A stretch of DNA of 64,000 nt from Candidatus Merdicola faecigallinarum (GTDB lineage Bacteria > Bacillota > Clostridia > TANB77 > CAG-508): NCBI GenBank assembly GCA_018714565.1, contig DVNH01000010.1, positions 4,563-68,562 of the forward strand. Direction: 5' to 3'. Below are positions 55,157-57,998 of the stretch, one piece after another (the stretch's first letter is position 1; each line of letters begins with the position of its first letter). The notes beneath the pieces were generated by a model. That model did no database searches. It saw only the letters and a program-made list of their open reading frames with translations, and was not told the origin of the DNA. A program made the translations under genes and the position numbers.

Positions 55157-55753
55157 CTATTCTCTTTCTTCCTCCTCTTTTCGTTTAAATAAAGTTTTCA
55201 AGAAATCTTTTACTTCTTTTGGAACCATGAATGCATAATATTGTGGCAAAGTTTGGGTATTCTCTTTATTTTCTATTACATATTTTTGTAGATGATCCAG
55301 TCTATCCACTCTATCAAAATCTAATTCTAGAAAATCATCCAATGGTATTTCTACTAGAGCTGGCAAATCATCTGGCTGTATTTTTCTATCATCTGTAATG
55401 TTTAATAAATAAAAATCGGCATGCATACTTAGATCGGAATCTCTTTCAAATGGGTTCATTTCTCCCATTCTAACCTCTTTACTAAAAATAGGATGTTTTG
55501 TAATTTTCATTTTCGTAAAGTCGATTCCTTTCAATTCTTCTGAAATTTCTCTTAAAATTGTTTTTTTAGAACTTTCTCCATCATCCTCTTCTTTTTGCCC
55601 ACCTAACGTTTTAATAATAGCAGCTCTTTTTCCATTTTCTAATTCATACCATCTTTGTGGTTTTTGCATTCCTAGAACAACATTACCATTATGAATTACT
55701 ATGGCCTCTGCCCCTCTTACCTTGTTTAAAGTTTTATCTGCTATCTCCATCAA
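55157..55753 (-). CDS. NUDIX-like hydrolase with divergent Nudix box
   Basis: The segment GGQKEEDDGESSKKTILREISEELKGI approximates GX5EX7REUXEEXGU. The start overlaps the upstream ORF's stop by 4 nt. Confidence 0.45.
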   Translation of the reverse strand: MMEIADKTLNKVRGAEAIVIHNGNVVLGMQKPQRWYELENGKRAAIIKTLGGQKEEDDGESSKKTILREISEELKGIDFTKMKITKHPIFSKEVRMGEMNPFERDSDLSMHADFYLLNITDDRKIQPDDLPALVEIPLDDFLELDFDRVDRLDHLQKYVIENKENTQTLPQYYAFMVPKEVKDFLKTLFKRKEEEERE

Positions 55754-56715
55754 AAACTAGCTCCTTTCCGATCAACTTGTAATGTAGCACATATCTTACA
55801 GTTAATCTTGTTATTTCCCATGCCACTTCCACAGTGAACACATCCACCATTTTCTTCTTGGTTAAATTCATAATTTCTACAATAGATTTTAAAAAGTGCA
55901 TATTCAAATTTATTTTTAAATTGAAATATATTGCTACACCCTTTTTTATATTCTTCTTCTGAAATTTCGTTACCAATGCTTCTTATTGTCTCATATATTC
56001 CGGATCCTGTAAATGCCATTGTTTGTGGTCTTGTAATACAAATTGCTGGCAATTCATCTTCATACGCTTTTCTTAATGGATATTTTGTTTTTATTTCTCC
56101 TTCTTTTTTCATCCTTTCTTCTATTGGTATCGATAAAATTTCCTGTTTTACACTTTCCTCGTGAAAAGGTGCTATATATTGCATATTCACACTGCGTGCG
56201 ATTACATCGGACATAATCACAATTTCCTCTACTCTATCCTTAATTGCCTTATCCAATGATTCATTATCTCCTTTCCACTTTTGAAAAAAAGGAAAGCTTC
56301 CTAATAAATCATCTGCTCCTTCTCCACTAGAAATACTTTTTAGTCCTGCTTCTTTTGCATATCTCGTTCCTAAAAGTAAAGTCGTTGTAGAACTTACCCA
56401 TTCCGGATTAAACGATTTTAATATTTTAACAGATAATTCTACAATTCCTTTTACCTGTTCCGGTTTAACATAAAATACTTTATGATTTTTTATATTTAAC
56501 GCTTTTGCAACCATTTTACTATACTCTATATCTGAACTCTCTTTTCCTTCTACCCCAACGGTAATTCCCATAACATCCGGATTATATTTATGAGCATGAT
56601 ATAAAACTGCCGAACTATCAATTCCTCCAGAAAATAAAACAGCATCTGGTGGATTTTTCTTTATCACATCATCAATTTTATTTTTTATTCCTTCGTACAT
56701 CATTAGGATCAGCAT
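55750..56715 (-). CDS. Asparagine-synthetase-like PP-loop ATP pyrophosphatase (no glutaminase domain) with C-terminal Cys4 zinc ribbon
   Basis: PP-loop AVLFSGGIDSS, AsnB-type SGEGADDLLGSF and a C-terminal CVHCGSG...CKIC. The start overlaps the rSAM gene's stop by 7 nt. Confidence 0.7.
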   Translation of the reverse strand: MLILMMYEGIKNKIDDVIKKNPPDAVLFSGGIDSSAVLYHAHKYNPDVMGITVGVEGKESSDIEYSKMVAKALNIKNHKVFYVKPEQVKGIVELSVKILKSFNPEWVSSTTTLLLGTRYAKEAGLKSISSGEGADDLLGSFPFFQKWKGDNESLDKAIKDRVEEIVIMSDVIARSVNMQYIAPFHEESVKQEILSIPIEERMKKEGEIKTKYPLRKAYEDELPAICITRPQTMAFTGSGIYETIRSIGNEISEEEYKKGCSNIFQFKNKFEYALFKIYCRNYEFNQEENGGCVHCGSGMGNNKINCKICATLQVDRKGASF

Positions 56716-57998
56716 CCTTCTTTTAATATTTCTTTATAATGATTGGTATCATAAATCAACCTTAAAAAATTTCGGTAACTTAAGTTTGGTATTCCCTCAT
56801 AATAAGTTCTTTTATCATATTTTGCTATTTGTTCTTCATTCATATTATGATTCATTTCGTAAAAAGGAGTATATGCTGTGGGTCTAATTTTTACCCCATA
56901 GGAGTTTAAAAAATTTAATGTATATTCTATACTTTTCTTCGTTTGATTTGGAAGTCCAAACATAACTAAAGCTTTATACTCTATATTATATTTCTGCAAT
57001 AATTTAATTCCTTCTACGATTACTTTACTTTGATACCTTTTGTTAATATTTTTCAAATCCTCTTTTTCTACTGATTCAATTCCAATTGCAATTTTATAGC
57101 AACCAGATTCTGCCATCGTTTTTATTAATTCTTCGTTTTTTAATAAATCTGGTCTTGTCGTACAAGACCATTTTATTGTCTTCTTACTTTTGATAATTTC
57201 TTTACAAAGTTCCATTGCCTTTTCTTCATTTAACGTAAAATCCGGAGCAAAAAATTTATAGTATGGATAATTTAATCCTTCTATATAATTTACAATATCT
57301 TTTGCATCTCTCCATCTTTCTTTTTTTCCATAATATAATACTGCATTACAATAAGGACAATTATATGGGCACCCTCTTGCAACCGTAATTACAATTTGTT
57401 GCTTTTTTTCCATATCAAAATATTTCTCAAGTGGTACTTTTTTTGTATTTGTATATCCCCATTCTTCCGGATCTAAAAATTCACCAGATTTGCAATTTAT
57501 TAATTGCTTATTTTTTATTACAATAACACCTCTCATATCTTCTTCATTCGTTCTTCCTAAGCAATATTGAAAAAAATCTAATATTGCAATTTCTTGGTCA
57601 CATTCTCTAGAAACAATCGCATCAAAATTCGTGTTTCTAAAAAATTTCGGTAAATAAATTGCCATTTCTCCATATCCAATTGTTTTACAATCTGGCAACA
57701 TTTCTTTTATGTAATTTTGTAATTTTATCGTATTTTGTAAGTTTTCTGTATTAATGTAAAATGCGATTGCTTTATAATTCGTATGAATTATTTTTGACAT
57801 AATATCTTGGAATTCTGTTTGTTCCGCTTCTATGTCTAATAAATCAATTTCTTCTCCCAAATTTCTTTCCACATAGTCTAACACTTCTCCTATATGTACA
57901 AAATGATATGGTGCATTTACATGATTTGATTTTGTAGATAATCCACTATCCGCCCAAATAAATAAACAATTCGCACTCATGTCTTCCTCCTCTCTCAT
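56709..57998 (-). CDS. B12-binding-domain radical SAM protein
   Basis: About 190-aa N-terminal Rossmann-like B12-binding-type domain, followed by a radical SAM core with CPYNCPYC (CX3CX2C). The start may be the internal MSANCLFIW. Confidence 0.7.
   Translation of the reverse strand: MREEEDMSANCLFIWADSGLSTKSNHVNAPYHFVHIGEVLDYVERNLGEEIDLLDIEAEQTEFQDIMSKIIHTNYKAIAFYINTENLQNTIKLQNYIKEMLPDCKTIGYGEMAIYLPKFFRNTNFDAIVSRECDQEIAILDFFQYCLGRTNEEDMRGVIVIKNKQLINCKSGEFLDPEEWGYTNTKKVPLEKYFDMEKKQQIVITVARGCPYNCPYCNAVLYYGKKERWRDAKDIVNYIEGLNYPYYKFFAPDFTLNEEKAMELCKEIIKSKKTIKWSCTTRPDLLKNEELIKTMAESGCYKIAIGIESVEKEDLKNINKRYQSKVIVEGIKLLQKYNIEYKALVMFGLPNQTKKSIEYTLNFLNSYGVKIRPTAYTPFYEMNHNMNEEQIAKYDKRTYYEGIPNLSYRNFLRLIYDTNHYKEILKEGC

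What the first reader, a model, noticed from the sequence alone, without database searches (positions are those of the whole stretch)
55157..57998. Translationally coupled B12-rSAM / AsnB-like PP-loop amidotransferase / divergent NUDIX cassette upstream of cwlD and the giant glucan synthase
Three co-oriented ORFs overlap their neighbours' stops (by 7 nt and 4 nt). The first is a B12-binding-domain radical SAM enzyme; that class often catalyses methylation or C-C bond formation on unactivated carbons. The second is an asparagine-synthetase-like ATP pyrophosphatase that lacks the glutaminase domain but has a C-terminal Cys4 ribbon (CVHCGSG...CKIC). The third is a Nudix-like hydrolase with a non-canonical Nudix box. 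This combination is not a pathway I can name; it is not queuosine, thiamin, RiPP core plus precursor, or MoaA-like. Its position directly upstream of a spore-cortex-type amidase and a 2724-aa cyclic-glucan-synthase-like gene raises two possibilities: a nucleotide-activated small-molecule pathway, or a glycan or envelope modification pathway (amidation plus methylation).
Basis: inference. Interest (0 to 1): 0.65.

Follow-up and report, generated by a model that had tools for sequence, protein, structure and literature searches.

The report
Uncharacterised radical-SAM, amide-ligase, Nudix nucleotide cassette
Three tightly packed genes in an uncultured chicken-gut Clostridium form a rare, conserved operon of unknown function that most likely tailors a nucleotide, and it matches no described pathway.

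Summary
They encode a class-B (cobalamin-domain-type) radical SAM enzyme, a stand-alone asparagine-synthetase-type PP-loop enzyme (AsnBL) with an invariant C-terminal Cys4 ribbon, and a Nudix-fold protein (NudL) with a non-canonical box.

The window is from Candidatus Merdicola faecigallinarum. GenBank calls the middle gene QueC, but it scores far below the QueC cut-off.

The family is rare: about 26 of 185,579 species genomes, all MAGs and mostly gut Clostridia. No specific curated model or paper was found. rSAM and AsnBL are always adjacent, and a Nudix of one of two unrelated types accompanies them in about 85% of loci. AsnBL::NudL fusions exist.

In 24 of 33 closer loci the gene after NudL is an NT5C-like 5'-nucleotidase, often followed by or fused to an adenylate-kinase paralogue. 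cwlD is adjacent in only three loci, and the glucan synthase in none. Distant versions add an unknown protein (c14) and NCBI's "PheS-related mystery ligase SrmL".

Best reading (about 0.5): a nucleotide-tailoring pathway of unknown product. Envelope, RiPP, QueC and known-defence readings are disfavoured.

Side finding: two species share a 1-nt insertion in the rSAM gene, yet the downstream frame stays under purifying selection.

The parts
56709..57980 (-). Class-B-type radical SAM enzyme, 423 aa. The mechanical ORF extends to 57998.
   Evidence: Pfam Radical_SAM scores 76.9 bits. The start at 57980 is supported by a GGAGGA RBS, by 420-aa homologues and by an exact match to HIU51241.1. The AF2 model has pLDDT 89, and its top Foldseek hits are TsrM, AprD4, OxsB, MgmA, CysS and TokK.
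57348..57371 (-). CxxxCxxC [4Fe-4S]/SAM motif (C204, C208 and C211 of the 423-aa protein)
   Evidence: The sequence reads GCPYNCPYC. These cysteines are invariant in 23 homologues.
55750..56703 (-). Stand-alone asparagine-synthetase-type PP-loop enzyme (AsnBL), 317 aa, with no glutaminase domain. The mechanical ORF extends to 56715.
   Evidence: Pfam Asn_synthase scores 91.3 bits. QueC, NAD synthase and others hit only the PP-loop region. The protein aligns to E. coli AsnB residues 217-468. It is an exact match to HIU51240.1.
56611..56631 (-). PP-loop SGGIDSS (ATP pyrophosphatase motif)
   Evidence: S29, G30, G31, D33 and S34 are invariant.
55789..55842 (-). C-terminal Cys4 ribbon, CxxC-x10-CxxC
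   Evidence: C292, C295, C306 and C309 are invariant in 20 homologues down to 34% identity. In fusion proteins the ribbon lies between the AsnBL and NudL parts.
55157..55750 (-). Divergent Nudix-fold protein (NudL), 197 aa. Its ATG overlaps the AsnBL stop codon as TGATG.
   Evidence: It has no Pfam, NCBIfam or PDB sequence hit. The AF2 model has pLDDT 89.7, and all top Foldseek PDB hits are Nudix hydrolases. It is an exact match to HIU51239.1.
55523..55600 (-). Non-canonical Nudix box, G52-x5-D58-x9-R68-E69-U-x-E72-E73-x2-G-U
   Evidence: G51, G52, E55, D58, R68, E69 and E72 are invariant, and E73 nearly so. The L013 homologue has canonical spacing and passes the Pfam NUDIX gathering score.
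58084..58092 (-). Extended -10 promoter-like element (TGgTATAAT), about 100 nt upstream of the rSAM start
   Evidence: This is a consensus match only. Homologous loci carry TTGACA-17-TATAAT-like sites at the same relative position.
55054..55106 (-). A/U-flanked hairpin between NudL and cwlD. It is a possible terminator of the cassette and overlaps the cwlD RBS.
   Evidence: The RNA fold gives -14.5 kcal/mol with z = -3.6, and 0 of 200 shuffles fold as well. The simple terminator scan did not call it.

Best explanation
The trio is the minimal form of a rare, conserved operon that most likely tailors a free nucleotide or a nucleotide-linked small molecule.

**Proposed scheme (inferred)**
1. The class-B-type radical SAM enzyme performs a radical C-H functionalisation on the nucleotide substrate. 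This would be methylation if it binds cobalamin. Otherwise it would be an AprD4- or OxsB-type rearrangement or dehydration.
2. The AsnB-type PP-loop enzyme adenylates a carboxylate on the same molecule. It then converts the carboxylate to an amide, using free ammonia or a substrate amine, because no glutaminase domain or partner is present.
3. The Nudix protein, often fused to the PP-loop enzyme, cleaves a (pyro)phosphate linkage to give the monophosphate form.
4. In fuller versions of the operon, an NT5C-like HAD nucleotidase takes the product to the nucleoside. An adenylate-kinase paralogue feeds or recycles the nucleotide.

**Shown**
- The fold and family of each protein.
- The conserved catalytic motifs.
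- Strict co-occurrence and fusions of the genes.
- The identity of the accessory genes.

**Inferred**
- The substrate class, the order of the steps and the chemistry.

The product and its biological role (antimetabolite, signal or cofactor) are unknown.
For: **Core gene linkage**
- rSAM and AsnBL are adjacent in every locus that has enough sequence.
- NudL follows in nearly all Clostridia and Bacilli loci.
- Fusions: AsnBL::NudL proteins of 506-520 aa are recurrent, and one c14::AsnBL fusion was found.
- In distant versions a canonical Pfam NUDIX protein takes the place of NudL. This suggests that Nudix activity itself is what the system needs.

**Nucleotide-related accessory genes**
- An NT5C-like HAD nucleotidase (35.1 bits against a gathering score of 24.8) follows NudL in 24 of 33 closer loci.
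- An adenylate-kinase paralogue follows in six loci. It scores 131 bits against a cut-off of 168 for TIGR01351 and keeps its Zn lid.
- A HAD::ADK fusion exists.

**Catalytic motifs are retained**
- rSAM: CxxxCxxC.
- AsnBL: SGGxDSS and SGEGADD, which aligns to the AsnB segment SGEGSDE.
- NudL: REx2EE.

**Structural matches**
- The rSAM model matches class-B enzymes. These include OxsB, which acts on adenine nucleotides, and AprD4.
- The best structural matches of NudL are NTP and dinucleotide pyrophosphatases.

**Independent expression**
- Sigma-A-like promoters lie upstream of the cassette.
Against: - No substrate is identified, and no step has been tested biochemically.
- No gene in the cassette obviously supplies a carboxylate.
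- A few loci carry only rSAM and AsnBL with no Nudix nearby: L012, L065 and L090-92.
- AsnBL replaces the AsnB Lys449-equivalent with an invariant Gln, so its chemistry may differ from carboxylate amidation.
- The Zn ribbon, the PheS-like SrmL neighbour and other translation-related neighbours fit an RNA or tRNA substrate equally well.
- Cobalamin binding cannot be judged from sequence. AprD4, the closest solved sequence relative, lacks it; that point is from memory.
Confidence: 0.5

Rival explanations
1. RNA or tRNA modification system. The PP-loop enzyme, with its Zn ribbon, and the rSAM would modify a nucleoside within tRNA, possibly tRNA-Phe. SrmL would serve as the tRNA-binding or ligase partner.
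For: - PP-loop enzymes with Cys4 ribbons are typical of tRNA thiolases and modifiers; this point is from memory.
- After the class-B enzymes, the next best structural matches of the rSAM model are MiaB, MtaB and RimO.
- SrmL, a PheS-related ligase with an FDX-ACB anticodon-binding domain, sits beside the cassette in three different arrangements.
- Canonical pheS-pheT lies directly upstream of the rSAM in L023 and L026.
- In the window, mnmA and aspS are nearby.
Against: - A mononucleotidase, an NMP kinase and a Nudix are not expected in a tRNA-modification operon.
- The rSAM lacks the N-terminal three-Cys auxiliary cluster of the MiaB type; no such invariant cysteines appear in the alignment.
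- The distribution is very patchy and includes decayed copies.
Confidence: 0.15
2. Defence or antagonism module. The cassette would make a toxic nucleotide analogue, following viperin-like logic, or an aminoacyl-nucleoside translation inhibitor. Nudix and HAD would provide self-protection or export processing. SrmL and ABC-F would act as resistance or accessory factors.
For: - The distribution is rare and patchy: about 26 of 185,579 species.
- The flanking genes differ between lineages.
- Several copies carry disruptions: a frameshift polymorphism, outright pseudogenes and a deletion remnant.
- A kinase neighbour is present, as with prokaryotic viperins; that comparison is from memory.
- A ribosomal-protection-type ABC-F (413 bits against a cut-off of 380) lies directly downstream in L038, L070 and L074.
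- aaRS or aaRS-like genes lie near the cassette in several contexts.
Against: - PADLOC gives only a generic rSAM-core match to PDC-M51A (46 bits), and nothing for the other two proteins beyond the PP-loop.
- No defence or mobile-element genes flank most loci.
- No phage or viral homologues were found.
- No immunity or export gene is conserved across the loci.
Confidence: 0.15
3. Envelope or spore-cortex glycan modification, acting on a nucleotide-sugar or muropeptide and functionally tied to cwlD and the GH94 glucan synthase.
For: - cwlD lies 101 nt downstream in the window, and it is also adjacent in L011/L031 and L018.
- A polysaccharide deacetylase follows the cassette in L011 and in L013.
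- UDP-sugars and UDP-MurNAc-peptides carry carboxylates and are Nudix-type substrates; this point is from memory.
Against: - cwlD is adjacent in only 3 of 33 closer loci, and within 8 kb in 6.
- The glucan synthase is found in none of them.
- The usual next gene is a 5'-nucleotidase.
- The cassette has sigma-A-like promoters rather than sporulation promoters.
- A strong hairpin lies before cwlD.
- The cassette also occurs in a Planctomycetota MAG and other MAGs outside the spore-forming Clostridia/Bacilli.
Confidence: 0.05
4. 7-deazapurine (QueC/QueE-like) chemistry, as the GenBank annotation '7-cyano-7-deazaguanine synthase' implies.
For: - The arrangement superficially mirrors QueE-QueC: an rSAM next to a PP-loop enzyme with C-terminal cysteines.
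- Nudix and HAD enzymes occur in the tubercidin and toyocamycin clusters; this point is from memory.
- A divergent purA-like gene lies near L051.
Against: - QueC TIGR00364 scores 29.9 bits against a cut-off of 150.3, and the match covers only residues 26-80. Asn_synthase is the strong hit.
- The rSAM has class-B architecture, not the QueE type.
- No folE or queD is next to any of the loci examined.
Confidence: 0.04
5. RiPP maturation cassette, with a B12-rSAM methylase and an AsnB-like macrolactam cyclase or amidotransferase acting on a small precursor peptide.
For: - Both enzyme classes occur in RiPP pathways.
- There are weak NCBIfam hits to ApyD, to rSAM_ocin_1 and to the albusnodin/ikarugamycin cyclase family.
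Against: - No small ORF is conserved upstream across loci, and several loci have none at all.
- No protease, leader-recognition or transporter genes are present.
- Nudix, nucleotidase and kinase partners do not fit a RiPP pathway.
Confidence: 0.03
6. Corrinoid (cobamide) remodelling. AsnBL would form an amide on a corrin carboxylate, and the B12-type domain of the rSAM would bind the corrinoid as a substrate.
For: - Second-tier relatives are stand-alone AsnB-like proteins with the same C-terminal CxxC..CxxC. One (P0121) sits in an archaeal CobD/CbiZ/CobS/CobT-type cluster. Another (P0250) is fused to an NTP-transferase.
Against: - Those relatives are only about 25% identical, and the profile score drops sharply between the true family and this second tier (bit scores fall from above 200 to below 180; E-values go from about 1e-56 to about 1e-47).
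- No cob or cbi gene and no cobalamin riboswitch lies near any true family member.
Confidence: 0.04

Closest known systems
Oxetanocin-A system OxsB/OxsA (a cobalamin-dependent rSAM with a nucleotide phosphohydrolase); the pathway details are from memory
   Same: A class-B rSAM is paired with a nucleotide phosphohydrolase. The rSAM model matches OxsB structures (5ul2, 5ul3, 5ul4) at E about 1e-17 and TMq 0.65-0.68.
   Different: The OxsA partner is an HD-domain enzyme, not a Nudix. OxsB is about 730 aa with extra domains. OxsB gave no phmmer hit at E <= 0.01 in the PDB sequence search. The oxetanocin system has no AsnB-like enzyme.
AprD4, the class-B-like radical SAM 1,2-diol dehydratase of apramycin biosynthesis
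   Same: AprD4 is the best solved relative by sequence (6fd2, E 4.8e-14 over the rSAM core) and among the best by fold (E 1.8e-18, TMt 0.62). It is similar in size.
   Different: The NCBIfam AprD4 model scores 76 bits against a cut-off of 500. AprD4 acts on an aminoglycoside and has a reductase partner (AprD3, from memory). The window rSAM has a different N-terminal loop, which is invariant within its own family.
Asparagine synthetase B, beta-lactam synthetase and lasso-peptide cyclase family
   Same: AsnBL shares the synthetase-domain fold family, the PP-loop and the SGEG(A/S)D(D/E) motif. It aligns to AsnB residues 217-468.
   Different: AsnBL has no glutaminase domain. It scores 82.8 bits against the AsnB cut-off of 499. 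An invariant Gln occupies the AsnB Lys449 position within a family-specific RPQTMAF motif. It carries an added Cys4 ribbon.
QueE/QueC and the 7-deazapurine nucleoside clusters (toyocamycin, tubercidin); cluster contents are from memory
   Same: An rSAM sits next to a carboxylate-activating PP-loop enzyme with C-terminal cysteines. Nudix and HAD phosphatases process nucleotide intermediates.
   Different: AsnBL fails the QueC cut-off (29.9 against 150.3). The rSAM is not of the QueE type. No GTP cyclohydrolase I or QueD lies nearby.
Puromycin-type aminonucleoside logic (Pur7 Nudix, Pur3 phosphatase, Pur6 amide ligase) and prokaryotic viperin with a nucleotide kinase; both from memory
   Same: An NTP-derived intermediate is trimmed by a Nudix and then by a monophosphatase. 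An amide-forming step is present. A nucleotide kinase is adjacent to a radical SAM enzyme.
   Different: No homology to these systems was tested or shown. The cassette contains no dehydrogenase or aminotransferase. The resemblance is one of pathway logic only.
NCBIfam NF051887, 'PheS-related mystery ligase SrmL'
   Same: The PheS-like neighbour of three distant cassette versions scores 398.7 bits against a cut-off of 300. It is therefore a member of a family that NCBI curators have already flagged as being of unknown role.
   Different: SrmL is absent from the window and from all Clostridia and Bacilli versions. No paper on it was found.

Membership tests
Class-B (cobalamin-binding-domain) radical SAM enzymes | Radical SAM core with a CxxxCxxC motif | tested here: met
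   Pfam PF04055 scores 76.9 bits against a gathering score of 29.5. C204, C208 and C211 are invariant.
Class-B (cobalamin-binding-domain) radical SAM enzymes | N-terminal Rossmann-type B12-binding domain | tested here: met
   The full-length AF2 model matches TsrM, AprD4, OxsB, MgmA, CysS and TokK at TMq 0.63-0.72. PF02310 is precomputed on many homologues that are 80% identical. Pfam did not call the domain on the window protein itself at E <= 0.1.
Class-B (cobalamin-binding-domain) radical SAM enzymes | Actual cobalamin binding or dependence | not testable with these tools
   No reliable sequence motif exists for this. The closest solved relative, AprD4, is reported not to use cobalamin; that point is from memory.
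Any characterised class-B equivalog (BchE, PhpK, AprD4, HpnJ/R, BzaD, MgmA and others) | Score above the NCBIfam curated cut-off | tested here: not met
   The best hit is BchE at 99.4 bits against a cut-off of 481. All 31 hits fall far below their cut-offs.
Asparagine synthetase B (glutamine-hydrolysing) | N-terminal Ntn glutaminase domain | tested here: not met
   The 317-aa protein begins at the synthetase domain and aligns to AsnB residues 217-468. No GATase Pfam hit was found.
Asparagine synthetase B (glutamine-hydrolysing) | PP-loop and Asn_synthase domain | tested here: met
   The SGGIDSS motif is invariant. PF00733 scores 91.3 bits against a gathering score of 21.
Asparagine synthetase B (glutamine-hydrolysing) | Equivalog score and the conserved Lys449-type residue | tested here: not met
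   NF006949 scores 82.8 against a cut-off of 499, and TIGR01536 scores 67.1 against 267. In the HMMER alignment Lys449 aligns with the invariant Gln231.
QueC (the public annotation of HIU51240.1) | Score above the TIGR00364 or NF008317 cut-off over the full length | tested here: not met
   The scores are 29.9 against 150.3 and 25.7 against 378. Only residues 26-83 match, which is the PP-loop region.
Nudix hydrolases | Nudix fold (alpha/beta/alpha sandwich) | tested here: met
   The AF2 model has pLDDT 89.7. All 50 listed Foldseek PDB hits are Nudix enzymes, with the best at E 1.4e-5 and TMt up to 0.65.
Nudix hydrolases | Canonical Nudix box GX5EX7REUXEEXGU | tested here: not met
   The box reads G-x5-D-x9-RE-U-x-EE-x2-G-U, and the window protein has no Pfam NUDIX hit. 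The REx2EE metal-binding residues are invariant. The L013 homologue has canonical spacing and passes the gathering score at 24.9 against 21.1.
Nudix hydrolases | Pyrophosphohydrolase activity | not testable with these tools
   This needs an enzyme assay.
RiPP biosynthetic cluster | Conserved precursor-peptide ORF next to the enzymes | tested here: not met
   No small ORF upstream of the rSAM is shared beyond near-identical sister loci.
Known or candidate anti-phage systems (PADLOC-DB 2.0) | Specific model hits for the component proteins | tested here: not met
   Only a generic rSAM-core hit to PDC-M51A (46 bits) and a PP-loop hit to QueC (E 0.0016) were found. NudL gave nothing.

The most novel reading that the evidence does not exclude
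The cassette encodes a previously unrecognised route to a modified nucleoside or nucleotide natural product in uncultured gut anaerobes. A class-B radical SAM enzyme would act directly on a nucleotide, which is otherwise known essentially only for OxsB. An AsnB-type enzyme would install an amide, or an aminoacyl-type amide link.

In distant versions the cassette is wired to the 'mystery ligase' SrmL and to a ribosome-protection-type ABC-F. That would point to a translation-targeting aminoacyl-nucleoside.
Probability: 0.2. Interest if true: 0.8.

Novelty: new variant of a known kind. Interest (0 to 1): 0.58.

Why it matters
If the nucleotide reading is right, this is a compact and portable three- to five-gene pathway. 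It would combine chemistry that is rarely seen together, namely a class-B radical SAM enzyme acting on a nucleotide and an ammonia-dependent AsnB-type amide ligase fused to a Nudix. It is found almost only in uncultured gut Clostridia and Bacilli.

It would offer three things:
- New enzymology, including the first partner context for the 'mystery ligase' SrmL.
- A possible new nucleoside metabolite in the gut ecosystem.
- A correction to a propagating misannotation, since the middle gene is labelled QueC.

The small size of the cassette makes heterologous reconstitution realistic.

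Tried and rejected
**Searches that returned nothing specific**
- Pfam, NCBIfam, PADLOC and PHROGs scans of all three proteins gave no family-specific model.
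- The PDB sequence search for NudL found nothing.
- Rfam scans of the window region and of nine loci found no riboswitch, only tRNAs.
- The viral-contig scan and the phage tblastn search found no homologues. The plasmid search found only generic asnB.
- Eight literature searches found nothing relevant. The terms were: radical SAM, Nudix and asparagine synthase in three combinations, PP-loop, agrocin 84, PheS-like, SrmL and 'mystery ligase'.
- A profile of the c14 family against PDB sequences gave no hit. Its conserved His/Glu/Asp pattern only loosely suggests a metal-dependent TIM-barrel enzyme.

**Readings considered and rejected**
- RiPP precursor: no small ORF is conserved across loci.
- Synteny with the window's other genes: the glucan synthase, SDR, mnmA, speE-like gene and aspS do not travel with the cassette.
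- Homologues of the accessory genes c2, c3, c14 and c41 within the 64-kb window: none were found.
- MiaB-type methylthiotransferase: the N-terminal Cys triad is absent.
- The aaRS and ABC-F neighbour enrichment is suggestive only. I did not run a proper statistical test.

Full report
**Observation**

The mechanical ORF list shows three co-oriented minus-strand ORFs at 56709-57998, 55750-56715 and 55157-55753.

The biologically supported starts lie slightly downstream.
- Homologues of the first protein are 420-423 aa, and a GGAGGA RBS precedes the ATG at 57980.
- The second gene most likely starts at the ATG at 56703.
- The third starts at the ATG at 55750, in a TGATG stop/start overlap behind a GGAG RBS.
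- With these starts, the three proteins are exact matches to GenBank HIU51241.1, HIU51240.1 and HIU51239.1 of Candidatus Merdicola faecigallinarum, a Clostridia MAG.

The genes are therefore tightly packed, with a 5-nt gap and a 1-nt overlap. The 7-nt overlap is probably an artefact of taking the longest ORF. In homologous loci the corresponding junctions overlap by 1 to 29 nt.

**What each protein is**

*Protein 1 (rSAM)*
- It has a Radical_SAM domain and an invariant CxxxCxxC motif.
- NCBIfam hits to BchE, PhpK, ladderane-B12, AprD4, HpnJ/R, BzaD and others all fall far below their cut-offs.
- Its best solved sequence relative is AprD4.
- An AF2 model (pLDDT 89) matches the class-B cobalamin-domain enzymes TsrM, AprD4, OxsB, MgmA, CysS and TokK over its full length. 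MiaB and RimO come next.
- Pfam B12-binding is precomputed on many homologues that are 80% identical.
- The class-B architecture is confirmed. Cobalamin use is not.

*Protein 2 (AsnBL)*
- It is an Asn_synthase-type PP-loop domain that aligns to AsnB residues 217-468 and has no glutaminase domain.
- The PP-loop and the SGEGADD motif are invariant. So are four C-terminal cysteines arranged CxxC-x10-CxxC.
- The position of AsnB Lys449 is an invariant Gln within a family-specific RPQTMAF motif.
- The GenBank name, 7-cyano-7-deazaguanine synthase, rests only on PP-loop similarity. The QueC model scores 29.9 bits against a cut-off of 150.3.

*Protein 3 (NudL)*
- It has no Pfam, NCBIfam or PDB sequence hit.
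- Its AF2 model (pLDDT 89.7) matches only Nudix hydrolases.
- The box reads G-x5-D-x9-RE-U-x-EE-x2-G-U, with the REx2EE metal-binding residues invariant.
- A distant homologue with canonical spacing passes the Pfam NUDIX gathering score.

**Distribution**

- NudL has only 26 clusters at 90% identity among 5.8 billion proteins.
- AsnBL has about 80 such clusters before a sharp drop to ordinary AsnB.
- An exhaustive profile search finds only about ten 50%-identity clusters of the true family.
- In one genome per species, covering 185,579 species, the family occurs in about 26. All are MAGs. Most are uncultured gut Clostridia from humans, mice, rabbits and sheep; the window itself is from a chicken-faeces MAG. 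A few are Bacilli, and there is one Planctomycetota MAG and one unclassified MAG.
- No phage, viral or plasmid homologues were found.
- No relevant paper was found.

**Comparative anatomy**

- rSAM and AsnBL are adjacent in every locus that has enough sequence.
- The order rSAM-AsnBL-NudL is kept throughout the Clostridia and Bacilli loci.
- AsnBL::NudL fusions of 506-520 aa recur.

Accessory genes in the 33 closer loci:
- In 24 loci, the gene after NudL is an NT5C-like HAD 5'-nucleotidase.
- Six loci add an adenylate-kinase paralogue with a Zn lid.
- One lineage fuses the HAD and ADK genes.
- The window belongs to the minority that lacks these extras, and the 64-kb window holds no copy of them.

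Distant versions, at 35-38% identity and from several phyla, are arranged in one of two ways:
- rSAM, NudL, c14, AsnBL.
- rSAM, c14, AsnBL, canonical NUDIX.

Here c14 is an unknown protein of about 250 aa, and it is also found fused to AsnBL.

Three such loci carry, in three different arrangements, a PheS-like protein with an FDX-ACB domain. It scores above the cut-off for NCBIfam 'PheS-related mystery ligase SrmL'. One lineage has a ribosomal-protection-type ABC-F directly downstream.

A few loci have only rSAM and AsnBL.

**The cwlD and glucan context**

- cwlD is adjacent in only three of the 33 closer loci, and within 8 kb in six.
- The 2724-aa GH94 protein is a cyclic-glucan-synthase-like enzyme, but it never accompanies the cassette.
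- The flanking genes differ from lineage to lineage.
- The cassette has its own sigma-A-like promoter consensus in most loci.
- In the window a stable A/U-flanked hairpin (z = -3.6) lies between NudL and cwlD.
- The envelope reading is therefore weak.

**Mechanism**

The best-supported reading is that the cassette acts on a nucleotide or a nucleotide-linked small molecule. The evidence is as follows.
- A Nudix is nearly obligatory, and it can be either of two non-orthologous types.
- Fusions link the partner proteins.
- A mononucleotidase and an NMP kinase are the recurrent accessory genes.

I propose three core steps:
1. Radical functionalisation by the class-B enzyme.
2. ATP-dependent activation of a carboxylate and amide formation by AsnBL, using ammonia or a substrate amine.
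3. Pyrophosphate cleavage by the Nudix.

Optional dephosphorylation and rephosphorylation steps follow in the fuller versions. The folds, motifs and gene linkages are shown. The substrate, the order of steps and the product are inferred.

**Rivals**

Each rival below is ranked lower than the main reading.
- tRNA modification. It is supported by the Zn ribbon, SrmL and the MiaB-like fold rank.
- A defence or antagonism analogue-producing module. It is supported by the patchy distribution, the decayed copies and the ABC-F and aaRS neighbours.
- Envelope modification.
- QueC-type chemistry.
- A RiPP cassette. No precursor ORF is conserved.
- Corrinoid remodelling. Only relatives at 25% identity sit in cobamide clusters.

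**Novelty and score**

All three proteins belong to known superfamilies. Nucleotide-tailoring operons with an rSAM or a Nudix have precedents: OxsB/OxsA, 7-deazapurine clusters, puromycin, and viperin with a kinase. I recall these from memory and did not test them here.

This combination, its fusions and its link to SrmL are undescribed. I therefore rate it a new variant of a known kind with unknown product, at interest 0.58.

Noticed in passing
L025:2858-2884 and L032:7592-7618 (rSAM gene; equivalent to window about 57090-57115, minus strand): Two species-level MAGs, 86% identical in DNA over the rSAM gene, share the same 1-nt insertion (GAA TCT C GGA TGT). The window and all the other loci where this site could be read lack it.

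Downstream of the insertion the +1 frame stays open and evolves under purifying selection. There are 40 synonymous and 12 non-synonymous codon changes, and the differences by codon position are 13, 3 and 43. No start codon appears for 47 codons.

The zero-frame codon after UCU is CGG, which I take to be rare at this GC content (codon usage not measured). This makes the site a candidate programmed +1 frameshift or other recoding event rather than a dead pseudogene.
   Followed up: partly
L001:8560-8585 versus L002: A poly-A run inside the rSAM gene is A10 in contigs from three BRZ samples (L017 is the same contig as L001), which frameshifts the gene. It is A9 and intact in an otherwise near-identical Logan contig. 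This is either a homopolymer length polymorphism or an assembly error.
   Followed up: partly
L008:2660-3508 (also L009 and L010): This is a decayed cassette. Only short remnants of the rSAM C-terminus and the AsnBL C-terminus remain, directly before an intact NudL gene, and IleRS follows. L018 has a multiply frameshifted rSAM that has lost its C-terminal third. The cassette is evidently dispensable in some lineages.
   Followed up: partly
L013:4111-5259, L049:1653-2765, L072:6561-7670: A monomeric PheS-like protein with an FDX-ACB domain lies beside distant versions of the cassette in three different orientations. It matches NCBIfam NF051887, 'PheS-related mystery ligase SrmL', at 398.7 bits against a cut-off of 300. 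The three copies are 40-45% identical to one another. No literature on it was found.
   Followed up: partly
L038:9733-11412 (also L070 and L074); L005:3385-4968: In one lineage, an ABC-F of the ribosomal-protection-like family (NF000355, 413 bits against a cut-off of 380) lies directly after the cassette's Nudix gene. In another lineage an ABC-F lies two genes upstream. Several loci also have aaRS genes close by: IleRS in L008, trpS and aspS in L051, and pheST in L023 and L026. I did not test whether this is more than chance.
   Followed up: no
L054:715-8271 (protein P0121): A stand-alone AsnB-like protein, 25% identical to AsnBL, sits in an archaeal-looking cobamide cluster with a diphthamide-synthase-like PP-loop protein and CobD, CbiZ, CobS and CobT-like genes. 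A related protein, P0250, is fused to an NTP-transferase and keeps the C-terminal CxxC..CxxC. This is a broader, unstudied group of Zn-ribbon AsnB-like enzymes.
   Followed up: no
window:55054-55106 (minus strand): A stable hairpin lies between NudL and cwlD (-14.5 kcal/mol, z = -3.6). Its A-run and U-run arms end 5 nt before the cwlD ATG and sequester the cwlD RBS (GGGAG). It could be a terminator of the cassette, a translational control of cwlD, or both.
   Followed up: partly
window:55750-56703 (GenBank HIU51240.1): The public annotation '7-cyano-7-deazaguanine synthase' is a PP-loop-only over-annotation. The QueC model scores 29.9 bits against a cut-off of 150.3.
   Followed up: yes
L036:6320-6742; L052:10601-11050; L064:3956-4162: A domain of about 140 aa with no family hit travels with the Bacilli-type cassettes. 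In L036 it is a separate gene overlapping the rSAM start. In L052 it is fused to the C-terminus of the HAD::ADK protein.
   Followed up: no
window:46051-54225 (minus strand): The 2724-aa neighbour carries two GH94 domains and a glucoamylase-like domain, which fits a cyclic beta-1,2-glucan synthase-like enzyme. It is not linked to the cassette in any other locus.
   Followed up: partly
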